A stretch of DNA of 22,421 nucleotides, taken from the IMG/VR virus record IMGVR_UViG_3300022758_000225, positions 1-22,421 of that record, one strand, 5' to 3'. Shown here piece by piece: positions 1 through 7,770 of this stretch (position 1 is the first letter of the stretch; the number at the start of each line of letters is the position of its first letter). The position numbers and the translations under genes are program-made. The DNA is from a virus. Its lineage: Duplodnaviria > Heunggongvirae > Uroviricota > Caudoviricetes. A model generated the notes under the pieces. It saw only the letters and a list, made by a program, of their open reading frames with translations, was not told the DNA's origin and made no database searches.

Positions 1-73
1 TGATTATTTGCCACCCATGCCCCCCAACGTTCAAGAACCATTTGAATATCACGCATCAACTGTCTCCACAAAA

Positions 74-4408: not shown

Positions 4409-4733
4409 CTTCTAAAAGCTCACTTTCATAGTTGATCGTGTAGAAGTTGGTCATGTCACGCTTCGATTTATTGAGTTGCTCGCGACGCAAAACCCCAAGT
4501 GATTTCAGGCTTGCAAATGTGCGTTTCAGAGTGGACTCTGACCAGAACGGAAACTGCTCCAGCCACTGTTCTGTCGTGTTATAAACCCAGCGAATTCCGC
4601 CATGCTCAGTGCCTGAATTCGTTTCATTCAGCCAGTAATGAAGCTGCTGCAACACAATTGCCTCATTCAGACCAATACGGCATGCAAGATCACGATTTAT
4701 CACAATGGGCTGGGATGTCATTAACAGGCTCAT
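4329..4733 (-). CDS. phage replisome organizer, N-terminal iteron-binding domain (lambda O-like)
   Basis: 134 aa; the N-terminus [39 protein letters not shown] resembles replisome-organizer N-terminal domains. Its 3' end is encoded by the iterons. Confidence 0.6.
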   Translation of the reverse strand: MSLLMTSQPIVINRDLACRIGLNEAIVLQQLHYWLNETNSGTEHGGIRWVYNTTEQWLEQFPFWSESTLKRTFASLKSLGVLRREQLNKSKRDMTNFYTINYESELLEEVKVNESIRSKCTSPSGQSDLMDGRK

Positions 4734-4902: not shown

Positions 4903-5081
4903 AGGACTGTCTCCTTCTGCCGGTTGAAATCACCCACAGCCCACTCTGCAAAGCTGTGGGTTACAATTTCCCTGTCACCTGGTACATTCACTGCATAGCA
5001 ATACTCCACCTTCGCTTTTCCACCCGGTACAGGAAGCGCAATCAGTTGCGAGCGACGGTAGTGTGTTGTTAAACTGTTCAT
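4743..5081 (-). CDS. hypothetical protein (gene model uncertain)
   Basis: ATG at 5081 with GGAG about 10 nt upstream. The 3' two-thirds overlaps the DUF4222-like gene in another frame and looks low-complexity, so the true product is probably shorter. Confidence 0.2.
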
Positions 5082-5147
5082 GCGTTAGTTTCTCCACAAC
5101 CAGAAGCAATCGACGCCACGACGCCCGGAGCTGCACACTCGCGGGCG

Positions 5148-5636
5148 TCACTCTTTTCTGGAGCGCAAAAGATTTTGTAGACCAGTGCTGCATGCTCCTG
5201 GAGCTTCGCAAATTGACAGATACAACTCATCATTAATTGCTGTCTGCTCGTGTGGCTCCACTACCCCATCTTCGATTGCCGAACGAATCTGCTTTGAGTA
5301 ACTCCCGATCTGTTCGATGACTTCCAGCAGGCGCTGGTTTATATCGGCGTTCTCTACTTCCTCAATTTCAGGAAGCGATACAAACACCCCACCAGCAGAC
5401 TGTGCGACAGCATCCGCAATGTAGTGAGTGCCAGCCGCGCGCTGTAAAATCATTGCCCATCCCAGCGGGAAAATCTGATCGCCATCTGCACGAAGGCGGT
5501 TGAATAAAGCGTTCTCTGTTACATCCAGCCACTCAGCAGCTTCAGCGTAACCCCCCGGCAACGCCGCGATAGTTTTTCTGACAGCTTTCACGTACCACTC
5601 AGGCTGTTTTTCCACTTTCCAGTGATGATTACCCAC
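5148..5636 (-). CDS. CII-like regulatory protein (CP76 / YdaT-like family)
   Basis: 162 aa with GTG start preceded by AGGAGG. Lies immediately downstream of the cro-like gene, opposite the repressor. Family assignment is from recall only. Confidence 0.5.
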   Translation of the reverse strand: MGNHHWKVEKQPEWYVKAVRKTIAALPGGYAEAAEWLDVTENALFNRLRADGDQIFPLGWAMILQRAAGTHYIADAVAQSAGGVFVSLPEIEEVENADINQRLLEVIEQIGSYSKQIRSAIEDGVVEPHEQTAINDELYLSICEAPGACSTGLQNLLRSRKE

Positions 5637-5732
5637 GGCTTACCTCCTGTTCCTGTGGTTTAAAACCCATTCTGGTTTTGGCTAGATTGAAAACGTGCCG
5701 GATAAAGAATCTGCATTTCGCTGATTTCACCC

Positions 5733-5921
5733 TTAAAAAAATTGGCCAGACGTTCTGCAAGATCGATAGATGGAATTTGTTCCAGTCTTTTCAATACGAC
5801 TCAGCGTCGCTGGATTGACCTGAACGCCAGCAGCAACATGCTGCAAAGTAAATCCGTGCGCCTTACGCACATTTCCGTAATGGTGATTGCATATTACCTC
5901 CACATATTGCGTGATGAGCAT
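5733..5921 (-). CDS. Cro-like HTH (XRE-family) regulator
   Basis: HTH signature LQHVAAGVQVNPATLSRIEKTG. Divergent from the repressor gene. Internal ATG at 5921 chosen because the track's TTG at 6017 would overlap the cI start; no obvious SD, so possibly leaderless. Confidence 0.45.
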   Translation of the reverse strand: MLITQYVEVICNHHYGNVRKAHGFTLQHVAAGVQVNPATLSRIEKTGTNSIYRSCRTSGQFF

Positions 5922-5970
5922 ATTATTTTCACGCAAATATTTTGCGCAAGTTGATTTGCTTAACGCGCAA
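5907..5970. promoter_or_regulatory. OR-like operator cluster and divergent promoters between the cro-like and cI-like genes
   Basis: Three 15-bp palindromic sites centred about 24 bp apart: TTGCgtgatgaGCAt (5907-5921), cGCAAatattTTGCg (5932-5946), TTGCttaacgcGCAA (5956-5970). TTGATT at 5951-5956 and TAATAA at 5982-5987 are candidate promoter hexamers. Confidence 0.5.
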
Positions 5971-5990
5971 TAAAGAAATGTAATAAACGC

Positions 5991-6684
5991 ATGAACATAG
6001 GAAACCGAGTCAGACAACTTCGCCAGGCGAAGAACATGAAAATCGCCGATCTCGCTGAAGCAATAGGAGTGGATGCGGCGAATATCTCACGCCTGGAAAC
6101 AGGTAAGCAGAAACAATTCACTGAACAAGCCCTGAGTAATATTGCCAGGAGCTTAGGTGTTGATATTGCTGATCTCTTTACCTCAGACGTCAAAAGTAAT
6201 ACTGTATGTAAAAACAGTATTAGTGAGGATGTTGCGCAGGTGAAGGATGTATTCCGTATTGAAATGCTGGATGTCAGTGCCAGTGCGGGAAATGGCCTTA
6301 TCCAGGGCGGTGATGTCATTGATGTGATTCATGCCATTGAATACAGAACTGATAATGCTGTATCGATGTTTTGGCGGACGGCCAGCCAATCACATTAAAG
6401 TTATCAACGTTCGTGGGGACAGTATGTGTCCAACCATTGAGCCAGGAGATCTCATCTTCGTTGATGTCAGTATCAATCAGTTTGATGGAGATGGTATCTA
6501 TGTATTTGGTTTTGATGATAAAATTTATGTCAAGCGACTGCAAATGATACCTGACAAACTACTGGTGATTTCTGATAACCAGATTTACCGTGAATGGGGA
6601 ATTACCAGCGAAAATGAACACCGGTTTATGGTCTTTGGAAAGGTCTTAATCAGCCAGTCACAAACCCTTAAGCGACACAATTAA
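5991..6684 (+). pseudogene. cI-like prophage repressor (XRE HTH plus S24 LexA-like peptidase domain) interrupted by a frameshift
   Basis: ORF 5991..6398 carries the HTH (IADLAEAIGVDAANISRLETGKQ) and an Ala-Gly site (SASAGNG). ORF 6331..6684 in the +1 frame carries the S24 motifs GDSMCPTIEPGD and KRL. Removing one T from the T4 run at 6369-6372 joins them as ...NAVSMFGGRPANHIKV.... Confidence 0.7.
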
Positions 6685-6704
6685 CCCTTACCTCCTCATC
6701 AATT

Positions 6705-6726
6705 AGCCACCCAAAGGTGGCTTTTC
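6705..6726 (+). terminator. intrinsic terminator downstream of the cI-like gene
   Basis: Stem agccacc / ggtggct with loop caaa, followed by TTTT, about 20 nt after the cI stop at 6682-6684. Confidence 0.5.
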
Positions 6727-6739
6727 ATTACCCTTTAAA

Positions 6740-6792
6740 TTGCATATCTCGCAACAAAAACACTTGCATAATGCGCAACTTCATTTTATCTT
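6740..6792 (+). promoter_or_regulatory. OL-like operators with candidate PL promoter
   Basis: Two TTGC-N7-GCAA sites (6740-6754 and 6764-6778), 24 bp centre to centre, the same motif as the OR sites. TTGCAT at 6764-6769, a 17-bp spacer and TATCTT at 6787-6792 form a candidate rightward promoter. Confidence 0.4.
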
Positions 6793-7222
6793 TCTTTCCA
6801 GACAAACAAACAAGGTACTAACAAAATTTGGTTGTAACACGGCGTATGGCACATGCGTCGTTAGCGGTCTGGGGACGTTAAAGGGGACAATCCACTCCTT
6901 GCTCGGGCAAACAAACCAGGTAGCCGGAATGTGCAAGTCAATGATGATGCTGATAAGACGCCTAACCAGCGTGGCGGTTCGGTTTGACACCTGGGAAGAG
7001 ACCAGGGTGCAACGATGAGGGCATTTATGGAACCGCGACAAAGTGTGGTGCCGTAACTGGCTAAGTGCTCTCAGCGTTGTGGTGAATGCGCAGGCTGATG
7101 CGCGAAAGACATTGCAGCTATTGCGGAAAAGAGCTGTTCGGCGGGGCAATTAAACGCCCGTGAGAGTCTGAAATAACCGCAAGCCGGAGATCAGCACCGG
7201 TCACCACAACAGCCACTGCTTT

Positions 7223-7270
7223 AGCGGTACCAGTTTGTACACTTGCTTCCGGCTGGTACCGCTCTTTTTT
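7223..7270 (+). terminator. intrinsic terminator in the early-left leader (tL-like)
   Basis: Perfect 11-bp stem agcggtaccag (7223-7233) / ctggtaccgct (7253-7263) with a 19-nt loop, followed by T6 at 7265-7270. Confidence 0.5.
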
Positions 7271-7407
7271 ACAAAACAGAGAAGAGCATCACCGGACGAC
7301 GGGCTCATAACCCAATCCATCCGGGCGGCTGCCACCGCAGGTGTTCTTCTCTGTTTTGTGGAGAAACCAACCGACCTTGCAGGGTCGATATGATGAGGAG
7401 CAGCAAA

Positions 7408-7770
7408 ATGGCTAGCGTACGCAGTACTGATGTGCAGGCATTTATCGGGGAGCTGGACGGCGGCGTATTTGAAACCAAAATCGGCGCTGTTCTCAGTGAA
7501 GTCGCTTCCGGTGTGATGAACACGAAAAACAAAGGTAAGGTCTCGCTCAACCTGGAAATCGAACCATTTGATGAGAACCGTGTGAAAATCAAACACAAAC
7601 TCTCATATGTTCGCCCGACTAACCGCGGGAAAATTTCCGAAGAAGACACCACCGAAACGCCGATGTATGTCAATCGCGGTGGTCGCCTGACTATTCTGCA
7701 GGAAGACCAGGGACAATTACTGACTCTTGCCGGTGAACCTGACGGAAAACTCCGCGCAGCAGGTCATTAA
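7408..7770 (+). CDS. hypothetical early-left protein (first gene after the leader; yfdP-like by position and size)
   Basis: ATG at 7408 preceded by GAGGAG at 7395-7400; 120 aa. No similarity to lambda N. Track ORF 7243..7770 is an upstream extension without an RBS. Confidence 0.5.
   Translation: MASVRSTDVQAFIGELDGGVFETKIGAVLSEVASGVMNTKNKGKVSLNLEIEPFDENRVKIKHKLSYVRPTNRGKISEEDTTETPMYVNRGGRLTILQEDQGQLLTLAGEPDGKLRAAGH

What the first reader, a model, noticed from the sequence alone, without database searches (positions are those of the whole stretch)
5907..6778. One operator motif repeated at the cI/cro boundary and again downstream of cI
The 15-bp palindrome TTGC-N7-GCAA occurs at 5907-5921 (7 of 8 half-site positions), 5956-5970, 6740-6754 and 6764-6778. 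A related inverted palindrome cGCAAatattTTGCg sits at 5932-5946. Centre-to-centre spacing is 24-25 bp within each cluster, as for lambda OR and OL. Both the cI-like and cro-like genes lack convincing SD sequences next to promoter-like hexamers, suggesting leaderless transcripts.
Basis: seen in the sequence. Interest (0 to 1): 0.5.

Follow-up and report, generated by a model that had tools for sequence, protein, structure and literature searches.

The report
Prophage repressor operators flanking cI

Summary
The window matches the E. coli PMV-1 prophage and carries the immunity region shared with phages mEp460 and phi1720a-02: a cro-like gene, a cI-like repressor (HTH plus S24 peptidase domains), and an early-left promoter. 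All five motifs are at the stated coordinates.

**Supported.** Four motifs are real operator candidates. A weight matrix built only from relatives with 84% or lower cI identity ranks 6764, 6740, 5956 and 5907 among the window's top five hits. About 25 distinct homologous loci from many Enterobacterales genera keep the same 15-bp site, TTGCG-N5-CGCA(A/T), on both sides of cI. Phages with unrelated repressors carry different palindromes at the same two places. A 2025 preprint on phi1720a-02 predicts Cro binding at what corresponds to site 5956-5970.

**Not supported.**
- The "inverted palindrome" at 5932-5946 is not a site (-36.9 bits), and its left arm is not conserved.
- The 25-bp spacing comes from an extra T at 5926 found only in this window.
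- cro has a strong GGAGG ribosome-binding site and is not leaderless.

A leaderless cI transcript is plausible. This is an ordinary lambdoid architecture with a new operator sequence, so interest is low.

Separately, the promoter next to these operators (PL) leads into an unannotated, conserved RNA-like element that sits next to tRNA genes in other phages. It deserves its own study.

The parts
5629..5892 (-). cro-like gene (86 aa in relatives, HTH_3 domain). In the window it is broken by extra bases at 5662, 5788 and 5872.
   Evidence: annotated as Cro or HTH regulator in mEp460, SfII and PMV-1.
5897..5901 (-). Ribosome-binding site GGAGG of cro, 4 nt before the ATG.
   Evidence: CCTCC or CCCCC is conserved at this column in most family loci.
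5907..5921 (.). Operator site A (equivalent to lambda OR1), TTGCGTGATGAGCAT. It is a degenerate copy of the family consensus TTGCGTATTACGCAT and overlaps the -10/+1 region of PR.
   Evidence: 13.6 bits here; family median 20.3 bits, 25 of 25 loci at or above 8 bits. The preprint predicts Cro binding at the phiNP counterpart.
5920..5925 (-). Predicted PR -10 hexamer, TAATAT.
   Evidence: TAAYAT is conserved at this column, 17 bp from TTGCGC in relatives and 18 bp in the window. Inferred, not mapped.
5935..5949 (.). Weak or half operator B, AAATATTTTGCGCAA. Its right half, CGCAA, lies in the near-invariant TTGCGCAA block and overlaps the predicted PR -35 (TTGCGC, minus strand, 5944-5949).
   Evidence: Third peak of the family score profile: median 9.4 bits, 14 of 25 loci at or above 8 bits, but -0.4 bits in this lineage. 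Conservation profile.
5956..5970 (.). Operator site C (equivalent to lambda OR3), TTGCTTAACGCGCAA. Its left half is the predicted -35 of the cI promoter.
   Evidence: 15.6 bits; family median 19.0 bits, 25 of 25 loci. It lies within the stretch 20-39 nt upstream of cI where the preprint models phi1720a-02 Cro.
5979..5984 (+). Predicted -10 hexamer TGTAAT of the cI promoter (PRM-like), 17 bp from TTGCTT and 6 nt before the cI ATG.
   Evidence: Conserved in most family loci. Implies a leaderless cI mRNA. Inferred.
5991..6684 (+). cI-like repressor (230 aa in relatives; HTH_3 plus Peptidase_S24; Ala99-Gly100, Ser144 and Lys181 invariant). In the window it is frameshifted by an extra T at 6369.
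6705..6726 (+). Intrinsic terminator after cI.
   Evidence: annotated as a terminator in SfII.
6740..6754 (.). Operator OL2, TTGCATATCTCGCAA.
   Evidence: 20.3 bits; a distal OL site is present in most relatives.
6764..6778 (.). Operator OL1, TTGCATAATGCGCAA. Its left half is the predicted PL -35 (TTGCAT, 6764-6769).
   Evidence: 20.8 bits; same geometry in relatives.
6787..6792 (+). Predicted PL -10 hexamer TATCTT, 17 bp from TTGCAT. Predicted start near 6799.
   Evidence: TTATCT is conserved in most relatives. Inferred.
6810..6820 (.). Right-hand mosaic junction of the immunity module.
   Evidence: Phages 2H10 and Stx2c have a different repressor gene and different operator-like palindromes but share the sequence from about 6820 onward.

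Best explanation
The four TTGC-N7-GCAA sites are the operators of a lambdoid immunity module. The family consensus is TTGC(G/A)YWWWWCGCA(A/T), with an A/T-rich centre.

**Repression in the lysogen.** The cI-like repressor has an N-terminal XRE-type helix-turn-helix with a near-invariant recognition helix, N-I/V-S-R-L/V-E-T-G-K-Q-K. Its C-terminal domain is a LexA-like S24 self-cleaving domain. It is proposed to bind these sites as a dimer.
- OL1 (6764) covers -35 to -21 of the early-left promoter PL. OL2 (6740), 24 bp away, would allow pairwise cooperative binding.
- Site A (5907) covers the -10/+1 region of PR, the cro promoter.
- Site C (5956) covers -35 to -21 of the cI promoter, so cI would repress its own synthesis at high occupancy.
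- A weak half-site in the near-invariant TTGCGCAA block overlaps the PR -35.

**Induction.** RecA-stimulated self-cleavage at Ala99-Gly100 would remove the repressor. Cro has a similar S-R-x-E recognition helix and would then bind the same sites, preferring site C, to shut off cI.

**Transcripts.** cI mRNA probably starts at its own AUG (leaderless). cro mRNA has a leader of about 20 nt with a strong ribosome-binding site.

**Shown versus inferred.**
- Shown here: the sites, their conservation, their co-variation with repressor type, and the domain content of the proteins.
- Inferred: binding, the promoter assignments, cooperativity and the direction of autoregulation.
For: - **Identity of the region.** Searches identify it as the mEp460 / SfII / Stx2a / phi1720a-02 immunity type. 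One search gives the domain content of cI and Cro.
- **Conservation.** In about 30 loci with 40-98% cI identity, the control region aligns without gaps in most. Sites A and C are 48 bp apart in all 25 distinct aligned ORs. Most have two (sometimes three) sites right after the cI terminator.
- **Independent matrix.** A matrix from relatives with 84% or lower identity recovers the window's four sites. Clustering this tight occurred in 4 of 2000 random sequences or fewer.
- **Repressor-specific palindromes.** e14 YmfK, phage 2H10 and Stx2c phages carry GTAC-type palindromes at both positions. An Acinetobacter relative with a different HTH carries TTTAAACC-type palindromes at both.
- **Linkage to cI.** The OL sites travel with cI, not with the downstream leader. 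SfII, F1055, phiNP and Eeyore have different leaders, and the mosaic junction lies at about 6815.
- **Literature.** bioRxiv 10.1101/2025.01.01.630987 covers phi1720a-02, which has an almost identical control region and a Cro with the same N-terminal DNA-binding part.
  - AlphaFold3 places its Cro on a 20-bp site 20-39 nt upstream of cI, which is site C.
  - It also places that Cro on the phiNP site 12 nt upstream of cro, which is site A.
  - A lux reporter carrying the phiNP control region gave lower expression in the phi1720a-02 lysogen.
Against: - There are no binding or transcription-start data for this element.
- The proposed promoters are weak matches to consensus (3 of 6 in each -35), and the generic promoter scan does not call them.
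- The third OR site is ambiguous and essentially absent in this lineage (-0.4 bits).
- The 48-bp A-C distance is not an integral number of helical turns, so lambda-style cooperativity across OR is doubtful.
- Sites A and C in this window are the weakest or near-weakest of their columns in the family.
- In the window itself, cI and cro are frameshifted. If those indels are real, the switch is dead here.
Confidence: 0.85

Rival explanations
1. The TTGC elements are simply -35-like promoter hexamers in an A/T-rich intergenic region, and their palindromic partners are coincidental. No dedicated repressor binds them.
For: Three of the sites start with a hexamer that also serves as the predicted -35. 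One stray exact match exists at 4476. The one-mismatch pattern is not enriched.
Against: - The GCAA arm is kept at a fixed 7-nt distance in about 25 distinct loci while the centre drifts.
- OL2 and site A are not at a -35 position.
- The palindrome changes when the repressor changes.
- Clustering reached this level in 4 of 2000 simulations or fewer.
Confidence: 0.04
2. The sites are used mainly by a regulator other than CI. Candidates are Cro alone, the neighbouring CII-like protein (CP76 family, ymfL), or a host factor, for example through lambda-CII-style TTGC repeats.
For: The only published modelling is for Cro, not CI. Lambda CII recognises TTGC-N6-TTGC (from memory). A CP76-type CII gene lies next to cro.
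Against: - The repeats are inverted with N7, not direct with N6.
- They flank cI at the PR and PL positions, not at a PRE-like position inside or beyond cro.
- The CI and Cro recognition helices both carry S-R-x-E.
- The palindrome type tracks the cI gene across mosaic phages.
Confidence: 0.07
3. One reading: OR is a lambda-like triplet at 24-25 bp spacing, with the everted palindrome 5932-5946 as the middle operator.
For: - The palindrome exists and sits exactly midway between A and C, 24 bp from each in relatives.
- Within the closest clade (93% cI identity or higher), ACGCAA is retained although the neighbouring bases differ.
Against: - The half-sites are in swapped orientation, so the same dimer cannot read them.
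- The score is -36.9 bits.
- The left arm is absent in F1055, Kp4878-1, phiNP, Eeyore, Kluyvera, Pantoea, Proteus and Serratia relatives, whose recognition helix is almost the same.
Confidence: 0.1

Closest known systems
Phage lambda CI/Cro switch with OR and OL operators
   Same: - Divergent cI and cro genes across a roughly 100-bp control region.
- A repressor made of an HTH domain plus an S24 self-cleaving domain.
- Partly palindromic operators overlapping PR and the cI promoter, with a second cluster at PL on the far side of cI.
- A 24-bp OL pair.
- A probable leaderless cI mRNA, as for lambda PRM (from memory).
   Different: - The site is 15 bp, TTGC-N7-GCAA, not lambda's 17-mer.
- There are two canonical sites per cluster, not three.
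- The OR sites are 48 bp apart with only a weak half-site between them.
- No canonical site is centred near -42 of the cI promoter, so OR2-type activation is not evident.
- A strong site sits on the cI -35.
- There is no N or rex gene, and the CII-like gene belongs to the CP76 family.
Control regions of Stx phage phi1720a-02 and Citrobacter phage phiNP (bioRxiv 10.1101/2025.01.01.630987)
   Same: - phi1720a-02 has an almost identical control region (one substitution in site A) and a Cro with the same N-terminal DNA-binding part.
- The predicted 20-bp Cro sites coincide with site C in phi1720a-02 and site A in phiNP.
   Different: - The preprint models one Cro site per phage with AlphaFold3 and supports it with a reporter.
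- It does not define a consensus, the OL sites, CI binding or the promoters.
Phage 434 and P22 repressor operators (from memory)
   Same: - Short conserved outer half-sites, as in 434's ACAA-N6-TTGT, around an A/T-rich centre that is not contacted.
- The nearest solved sequence relatives of the cI HTH include a 434-derived domain, but only weakly (E about 2e-4).
- The preprint finds Cro similar in fold to P22 Cro.
   Different: Different half-site sequence and length. There is no significant sequence relationship that would carry over specificity.
Stx phage 933W operators (from memory: three OR sites, two OL sites)
   Same: Only two OL sites.
   Different: Unrelated repressor specificity and operator sequence. 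Not compared here with tools.

Membership tests
Lambdoid CI/Cro immunity switch (OR/OL operators) | Divergently transcribed repressor and cro genes separated by a short control region. | tested here: met
   cro ATG at 5892 (minus strand) and cI ATG at 5991 (plus strand). The gap is 98 bp here and 97 bp in relatives.
Lambdoid CI/Cro immunity switch (OR/OL operators) | Repressor with an N-terminal HTH and a C-terminal LexA-like S24 domain carrying an Ala-Gly cleavage site and a Ser/Lys dyad. | tested here: met
   Pfam HTH_3 and Peptidase_S24. A99, G100, S144 and K181 are invariant in six homologues. The window copy has a +1 frameshift at 6369.
Lambdoid CI/Cro immunity switch (OR/OL operators) | Repeated, partly palindromic operators overlapping PR and the repressor promoter. 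| tested here: met
   Sites A and C are conserved in 25 of 25 distinct control regions and overlap conserved hexamers. The promoters themselves are inferred.
Lambdoid CI/Cro immunity switch (OR/OL operators) | Three OR sites with roughly two-turn spacing that allows cooperative binding. | tested here: inconclusive
   Only two canonical sites, 48 bp apart. The third register (5935-5949) has a family median of 9.4 bits but scores -0.4 here.
Lambdoid CI/Cro immunity switch (OR/OL operators) | A second operator cluster at PL on the other side of the repressor gene. | tested here: met
   Sites at 6740 and 6764 (20.3 and 20.8 bits), just after the cI terminator and overlapping a -35/-10 pair. Present in most relatives.
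Lambdoid CI/Cro immunity switch (OR/OL operators) | Operator sequence is specific to the repressor and moves with it as one module. | tested here: met
   Different palindromes occur with the e14/2H10/Stx2c repressor and with the Acinetobacter repressor. The mosaic junction is at about 6815.
Lambdoid CI/Cro immunity switch (OR/OL operators) | Direct, specific binding of CI and Cro to the operators. | not testable with these tools
   The only evidence is an AlphaFold3 model plus a lux reporter result for Cro in a preprint.
Lambdoid CI/Cro immunity switch (OR/OL operators) | Positive autoregulation of the cI promoter by repressor bound next to its -35. | not testable with these tools
   The geometry argues against it. 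A strong site covers -35 to -21, and the weak site is centred near -49.
Lambda CII-type activator sites (TTGC-N6-TTGC direct repeats) | Direct TTGC repeats 10 bp apart straddling a -35 at a PRE-like promoter. | tested here: not met
   The repeats are inverted with N7 and lie at the PR and PL positions. The CII-like gene here belongs to the CP76 family.
PurR/LacI-type box (considered for 5932-5946) | Even-length GCAA..TTGC palindrome with a central CG step. | tested here: not met
   The element is 15 bp with an ATATT centre, and it is not conserved in relatives. The PurR consensus is recalled from memory.

The most novel reading that the evidence does not exclude
This widespread immunity family may not work as a lambda-type three-site cooperative switch.

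- It has two strong operators locked 48 bp apart, and each directly occludes one of the two divergent promoters.
- A near-invariant TTGCGCAA half-site lies between them.
- The cI promoter's -35 sits inside a strong operator. This would mean pure negative autoregulation, with no activation of the kind lambda's OR2 provides.
- The OL/PL pair controls a conserved, unannotated structured RNA instead of an N gene.
  - In other phages that RNA is linked to tRNA genes.
  - Here it is followed by the cloverleaf-like sRNA-17 and a strong terminator.
- Early-left expression in these N-less phages could therefore depend on an RNA-based mechanism.
Probability: 0.3. Interest if true: 0.45.

Novelty: new member of a known kind. 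Interest (0 to 1): 0.2.

Why it matters
This immunity type is common. About 670 of 5426 complete E. coli genomes carry most of the region, including ExPEC K1 strains and several Stx2a and Stx2k phages.

A defined operator consensus and site map would help in three ways:
- predicting which co-resident prophages cross-repress each other, as the 2025 preprint proposes for phi1720a-02 Cro acting on phiNP;
- predicting superinfection immunity groups;
- designing reporters for Stx-phage induction.

Mechanistically it adds little beyond the lambda paradigm, unless the two-site, autorepressing layout of OR proves real.

Tried and rejected
Rejected as an operator: wrong half-site orientation, -36.9 bits, left arm not conserved.
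- **Alternative middle register 5942-5956 (TTGCGCAAGTTGATT).** It is canonical only in the Citrobacter amalonaticus relative. It scores 1.0 bit here, the family median is 1.0, and it overlaps site C by 1 bp.
- **Exact match at 4476.** Lies in a coding region, has a GC-rich centre and scores 5.7 bits; one stray match is expected by chance.
- **Hit at 42-56 (14.0 bits).** Equals the mean best score of random sequence.
- **e14 YmfK as a homologue.** Only the S24 domain aligns and the HTH differs, so e14 serves as a negative control rather than a relative.
- **Lambda CII-type and PurR-type readings.** Rejected on geometry.
- **Generic promoter scan.** Does not call PR, PL or the cI promoter; these rest on conservation only.
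- **Rfam.** At gathering and at permissive thresholds it finds nothing in the window. ARAGORN finds no tRNA or tmRNA.
- **Literature.** Searches for operators of mEp460, SfII or YmfK found no mapping. The SfIV paper only notes that N, cII and cIII are absent.
- **RS218 record.** Not in the collection.
Full report
**What the region is**

Window 5600-7300 matches lambdoid phages mEp460, PhiR63_1, phiSTEC1575-Stx2k, 1720a-02, Stx2a_1447 and Stx2a_WGPS2 at 96-98.5% identity, and SfII at about 91%. About 670 of 5426 complete E. coli genomes carry most of it.

The window has no substitutions against the E. coli PMV-1 prophage over 13.3 kb. It differs by ten single-base indels, mostly in short homopolymer runs.

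Annotation in mEp460, PMV-1 and SfII, plus Pfam, gives this layout:

| Feature | Window coordinates | Strand | Notes |
|---|---|---|---|
| CP76-type CII-like gene (ymfL) | about 5078-5636 | minus | |
| cro-like HTH_3 gene | 5629-5892 | minus | |
| cI-like gene | 5991-6684 | plus | HTH_3 plus Peptidase_S24 |
| Terminator | 6705-6726 | plus | |
| No annotated gene | about 6685-7408 | | roughly 720 nt |
| yfdP, yfdQ, yfdR | from about 7408 | plus | |

Ala99-Gly100, Ser144 and Lys181 of cI are invariant in six homologues. The window's copies of cI (extra T at 6369) and cro (extra bases at 5662, 5788 and 5872) are frameshifted. Removing the extra T restores a full 230-aa cI; removing the two extra bases at 5788 and 5872 restores the Cro reading frame up to the third indel at 5662.

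**Checking the observation**

- Exact TTGC-N7-GCAA occurs four times against 0.86 expected. The fourth copy, at 4476 inside a gene, was not mentioned.
- With one mismatch the pattern is not enriched, 16 found against 16.2 expected. The 7-of-8 site at 5907 needs outside support.
- The 25-bp spacing between 5914 and 5939 comes from an extra T at 5926. That T is absent from PMV-1, mEp460, 25 distinct family control regions and 46 IMG/VR loci with an identical cI.

**Comparative evidence**

I collected cI homologues at 40-98% amino-acid identity from two sources:
- phages F1055, Kp4878-1, phiNP, SfII and Eeyore;
- one genome per species, covering Citrobacter, Kluyvera, Klebsiella, Buttiauxella, Trabulsiella, Pantoea, Mixta, Rosenbergiella, Dryocola, Proteus, Serratia and Phaseolibacter.

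Their recognition helix, N-I/V-S-R-L/V-E-T-G-K-Q-K, is nearly invariant. Most control regions align without a single gap. The order of features is:
1. cro ATG;
2. CCTCC, the complement of the cro ribosome-binding site;
3. site A (15 bp);
4. 19 nt, whose first four bases complete the PR -10;
5. the near-invariant block TTGCGCAAGTTG(A/C)T;
6. site C (15 bp);
7. about 14 nt;
8. TGTAAT;
9. 6 nt;
10. cI ATG.

Information content peaks on TTGCG and CGCAT of site A, on TGCGCAAGT, on TTGC and CGCAA of site C, and on TGTAAT.

Downstream of cI, most loci have two sites 22-24 bp apart just after the terminator. Pantoea relatives have a third site.

**Independent scoring of the window**

I built a weight matrix from 60 distinct sites taken only from relatives with 84% or lower cI identity. 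Its consensus is TTGCGTATTACGCAA. The scores in the window were:

| Site | Score (bits) | Comment |
|---|---|---|
| 6764 | 20.8 | OL1 |
| 6740 | 20.3 | OL2 |
| 5956 | 15.6 | site C |
| 42-56 | 14.0 | chance level |
| 5907 | 13.6 | site A |
| 4476 | 5.7 | chance level |
| 5942-5956 | 1.0 | alternative middle register |

In 2000 first-order Markov simulations, 4 contained any pair of hits at or above 13.5 bits within 60 bp. The window has two such pairs. None of the simulations had two hits at or above 20 bits.

**The palindrome tracks the repressor**

- e14's YmfK shares only the S24 domain with this cI. It has GTAC-type palindromes both in its OR and after its repressor gene.
- The Acinetobacter relative (32% identity, different HTH) has TTTAAACC-type palindromes at both places.
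- Phages 2H10 and Stx2c_JNE082642 carry a different repressor gene and GTAC-type palindromes like those of e14. They become homologous to the window from about 6820 onward. The immunity module therefore ends about 20 nt past the predicted PL start.
- SfII, F1055, phiNP and Eeyore keep the OL sites but have different leaders.

The sites belong to cI, not to the neighbouring DNA.

**Promoters and transcripts (inferred from conservation)**

| Promoter | -35 | Spacer | -10 | Predicted start |
|---|---|---|---|---|
| PR (minus strand) | TTGCGC, 5949-5944 | 17 bp in relatives, 18 bp here | TAATAT, 5925-5920 | near 5913, inside site A |
| cI promoter | TTGCTT, 5956-5961, left half of site C | 17 bp | TGTAAT, 5979-5984 | 6 nt before the ATG |
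| PL | TTGCAT, 6764-6769, left half of OL1 | 17 bp | TATCTT, 6787-6792 | near 6799 |

- cro then has a leader of about 20 nt with GGAGG at 5901-5897.
- cI has no ribosome-binding site. The first 15 residues are conserved and belong to the HTH domain, so the ATG at 5991 is the real start.
- These hexamers are weak matches to consensus, and the generic scan misses them.

**The third OR site**

Its left arm is also absent in most relatives.
- The family-wide score profile shows a third, weaker peak at register 5935-5949 (N5-N5-CGCAA). The median is 9.4 bits, the maximum 15.4, and 14 of 25 loci reach 8 bits.
- That register is 21 bp from C and 27 bp from A, and it overlaps the PR -35.
- In this lineage only the CGCAA half remains (-0.4 bits).
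- I regard the middle site as unresolved.

**Literature**

A 2025 preprint (10.1101/2025.01.01.630987) studied phi1720a-02. Its control region differs from the window's by one base in site A, and its Cro has the same N-terminal DNA-binding part.

- AlphaFold3 placed a Cro dimer on a 20-bp site 20-39 nt upstream of cI, which is site C.
- It placed the same Cro on the phiNP site 12 nt upstream of cro, which is site A. Arg32 contacts guanines in the model.
- A lux reporter carrying the phiNP control region gave lower expression in the phi1720a-02 lysogen.
- CI Arg34 aligns with Cro Arg32 within S-R-x-E.
- I found no published operator consensus, OL sites or CI binding data for this immunity type.

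**Verdict**

This is an ordinary lambdoid OR/OL arrangement with its own 15-bp operator.

- Wrong: the middle site, the cro ribosome-binding-site claim and the 25-bp spacing.
- Real differences from lambda:
  - two canonical sites per cluster;
  - a fixed 48-bp A-C distance;
  - a strong site over the cI -35, which suggests autorepression without lambda-style activation;
  - no N gene.

**Beyond the finding: what PL transcribes**

- sRNA-17 of E. coli K1 RS218 (PMC7719688) maps to window 7075-7268 by its published primers.
- It folds into a cloverleaf-like four-way junction followed by a strong terminator.
- Upstream of it, 6826 to about 7082 is an unannotated element.
  - Its 22-mer CCAGGTAGCCGGAATGTGCAAG occurs in at least 120 viral contigs, in 88 distinct versions.
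  - In P1 the element follows a tRNA(CAT) gene and precedes ban.
  - In phiV10-like phages it directly precedes tRNA-Arg(TCT).
  - Two hairpins show compensatory changes: 35 double-change cells against 12.2 in shuffles, 0 of 500 shuffles as high. Slid controls are 22-43% paired against 99% for the proposed structure. The rest of the proposed structure is nearly invariant and so carries little covariation evidence.
- The element is not in Rfam, and its sequence appears in no searchable paper.
- Its function is unknown.

Noticed in passing
window 6826-7082 (+): An unannotated, highly conserved element lies right after the predicted PL start.
- Its 22-mer at 6916-6937 occurs in at least 120 IMG/VR contigs, in 88 versions and four subfamilies (lambdoid, phiV10/epsilon15-like, P1-like and one more).
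- In P1 it sits between a tRNA(CAT) gene and ban. In phiV10-like phages it directly precedes tRNA-Arg(TCT).
- Two hairpins show compensatory changes, and many G-U pairs point to a plus-strand RNA.
- It is not in Rfam and has no match in paper texts.
   Followed up: partly
window 7075-7268 (+): This is sRNA-17 of E. coli K1 RS218 (PMC7719688), mapped by its published primers.
- It folds as a cloverleaf-like four-way junction: closing stem GCGUUGUGGUGA/UCACCACAAC, a D-like hairpin, a T-like hairpin and a long central arm, followed by a terminator.
- It occupies the slot where related phages have a tRNA gene or a different cassette.
- ARAGORN calls no tRNA here.
- It contains a 25-aa open reading frame with a CxxC motif at 7086-7163.
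   Followed up: partly
window 469, 4331, 5209, 5662, 5788, 5872, 5926, 6369, 7265, 8168: Ten single-base indels against E. coli PMV-1, with zero substitutions over 13.3 kb.
- Seven of them fall in 5209-7265.
- They break ymfL, cro (three times) and cI, and add 1 bp inside OR.
- Most are in short homopolymer runs, so they are probably sequencing errors. If real, the immunity switch here is inactivated.
   Followed up: partly
window 7225-7270 (+): A strong intrinsic terminator (about an 11-bp stem followed by T6) lies between PL and yfdP/yfdQ/yfdR. No N-like gene is annotated, and the SfIV paper notes that this phage group lacks N. How early-left transcription passes this terminator is open.
   Followed up: no
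window 42-56: TTGAATATCACGCAT scores 14.0 bits with the operator matrix and ends on the start codon of the Q antiterminator gene (minus strand). The score equals the mean best score of random sequence, so this is probably chance.
   Followed up: partly
window 5907-5936: A long-spaced inverted repeat, TTGCGTGA-N14-TCACGCAA, is present. Within the closest clade (cI identity 93% or higher), ACGCAA at 5931-5936 is kept although the flanking bases differ. This suggests a lineage-specific constraint that is not explained by the canonical operator model.
   Followed up: partly
L088 (e14), L083, L085, L087, L093, L096, L098: leaders after PL: A second, different PL-leader type (…ACAGGCAGGACGCCCACGAAGTAGCCGCC…GATGATTCG…) is shared by e14, F1055, phiNP, Eeyore and several prophages despite their different repressors. 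It is another conserved non-coding leader module.
   Followed up: no
window 7064-7106: A roughly 40-nt piece (CTAAGTGCTCTCAGCGTTGTGGTGAATGCGCAGGCTGATGCGC) recurs at 88-95% identity in many otherwise unrelated Klebsiella, Erwinia, Cronobacter, Salmonella and E. coli phages. In phiV10-like phages its GTTGTGG part runs into the acceptor stem of tRNA-Arg.
   Followed up: partly
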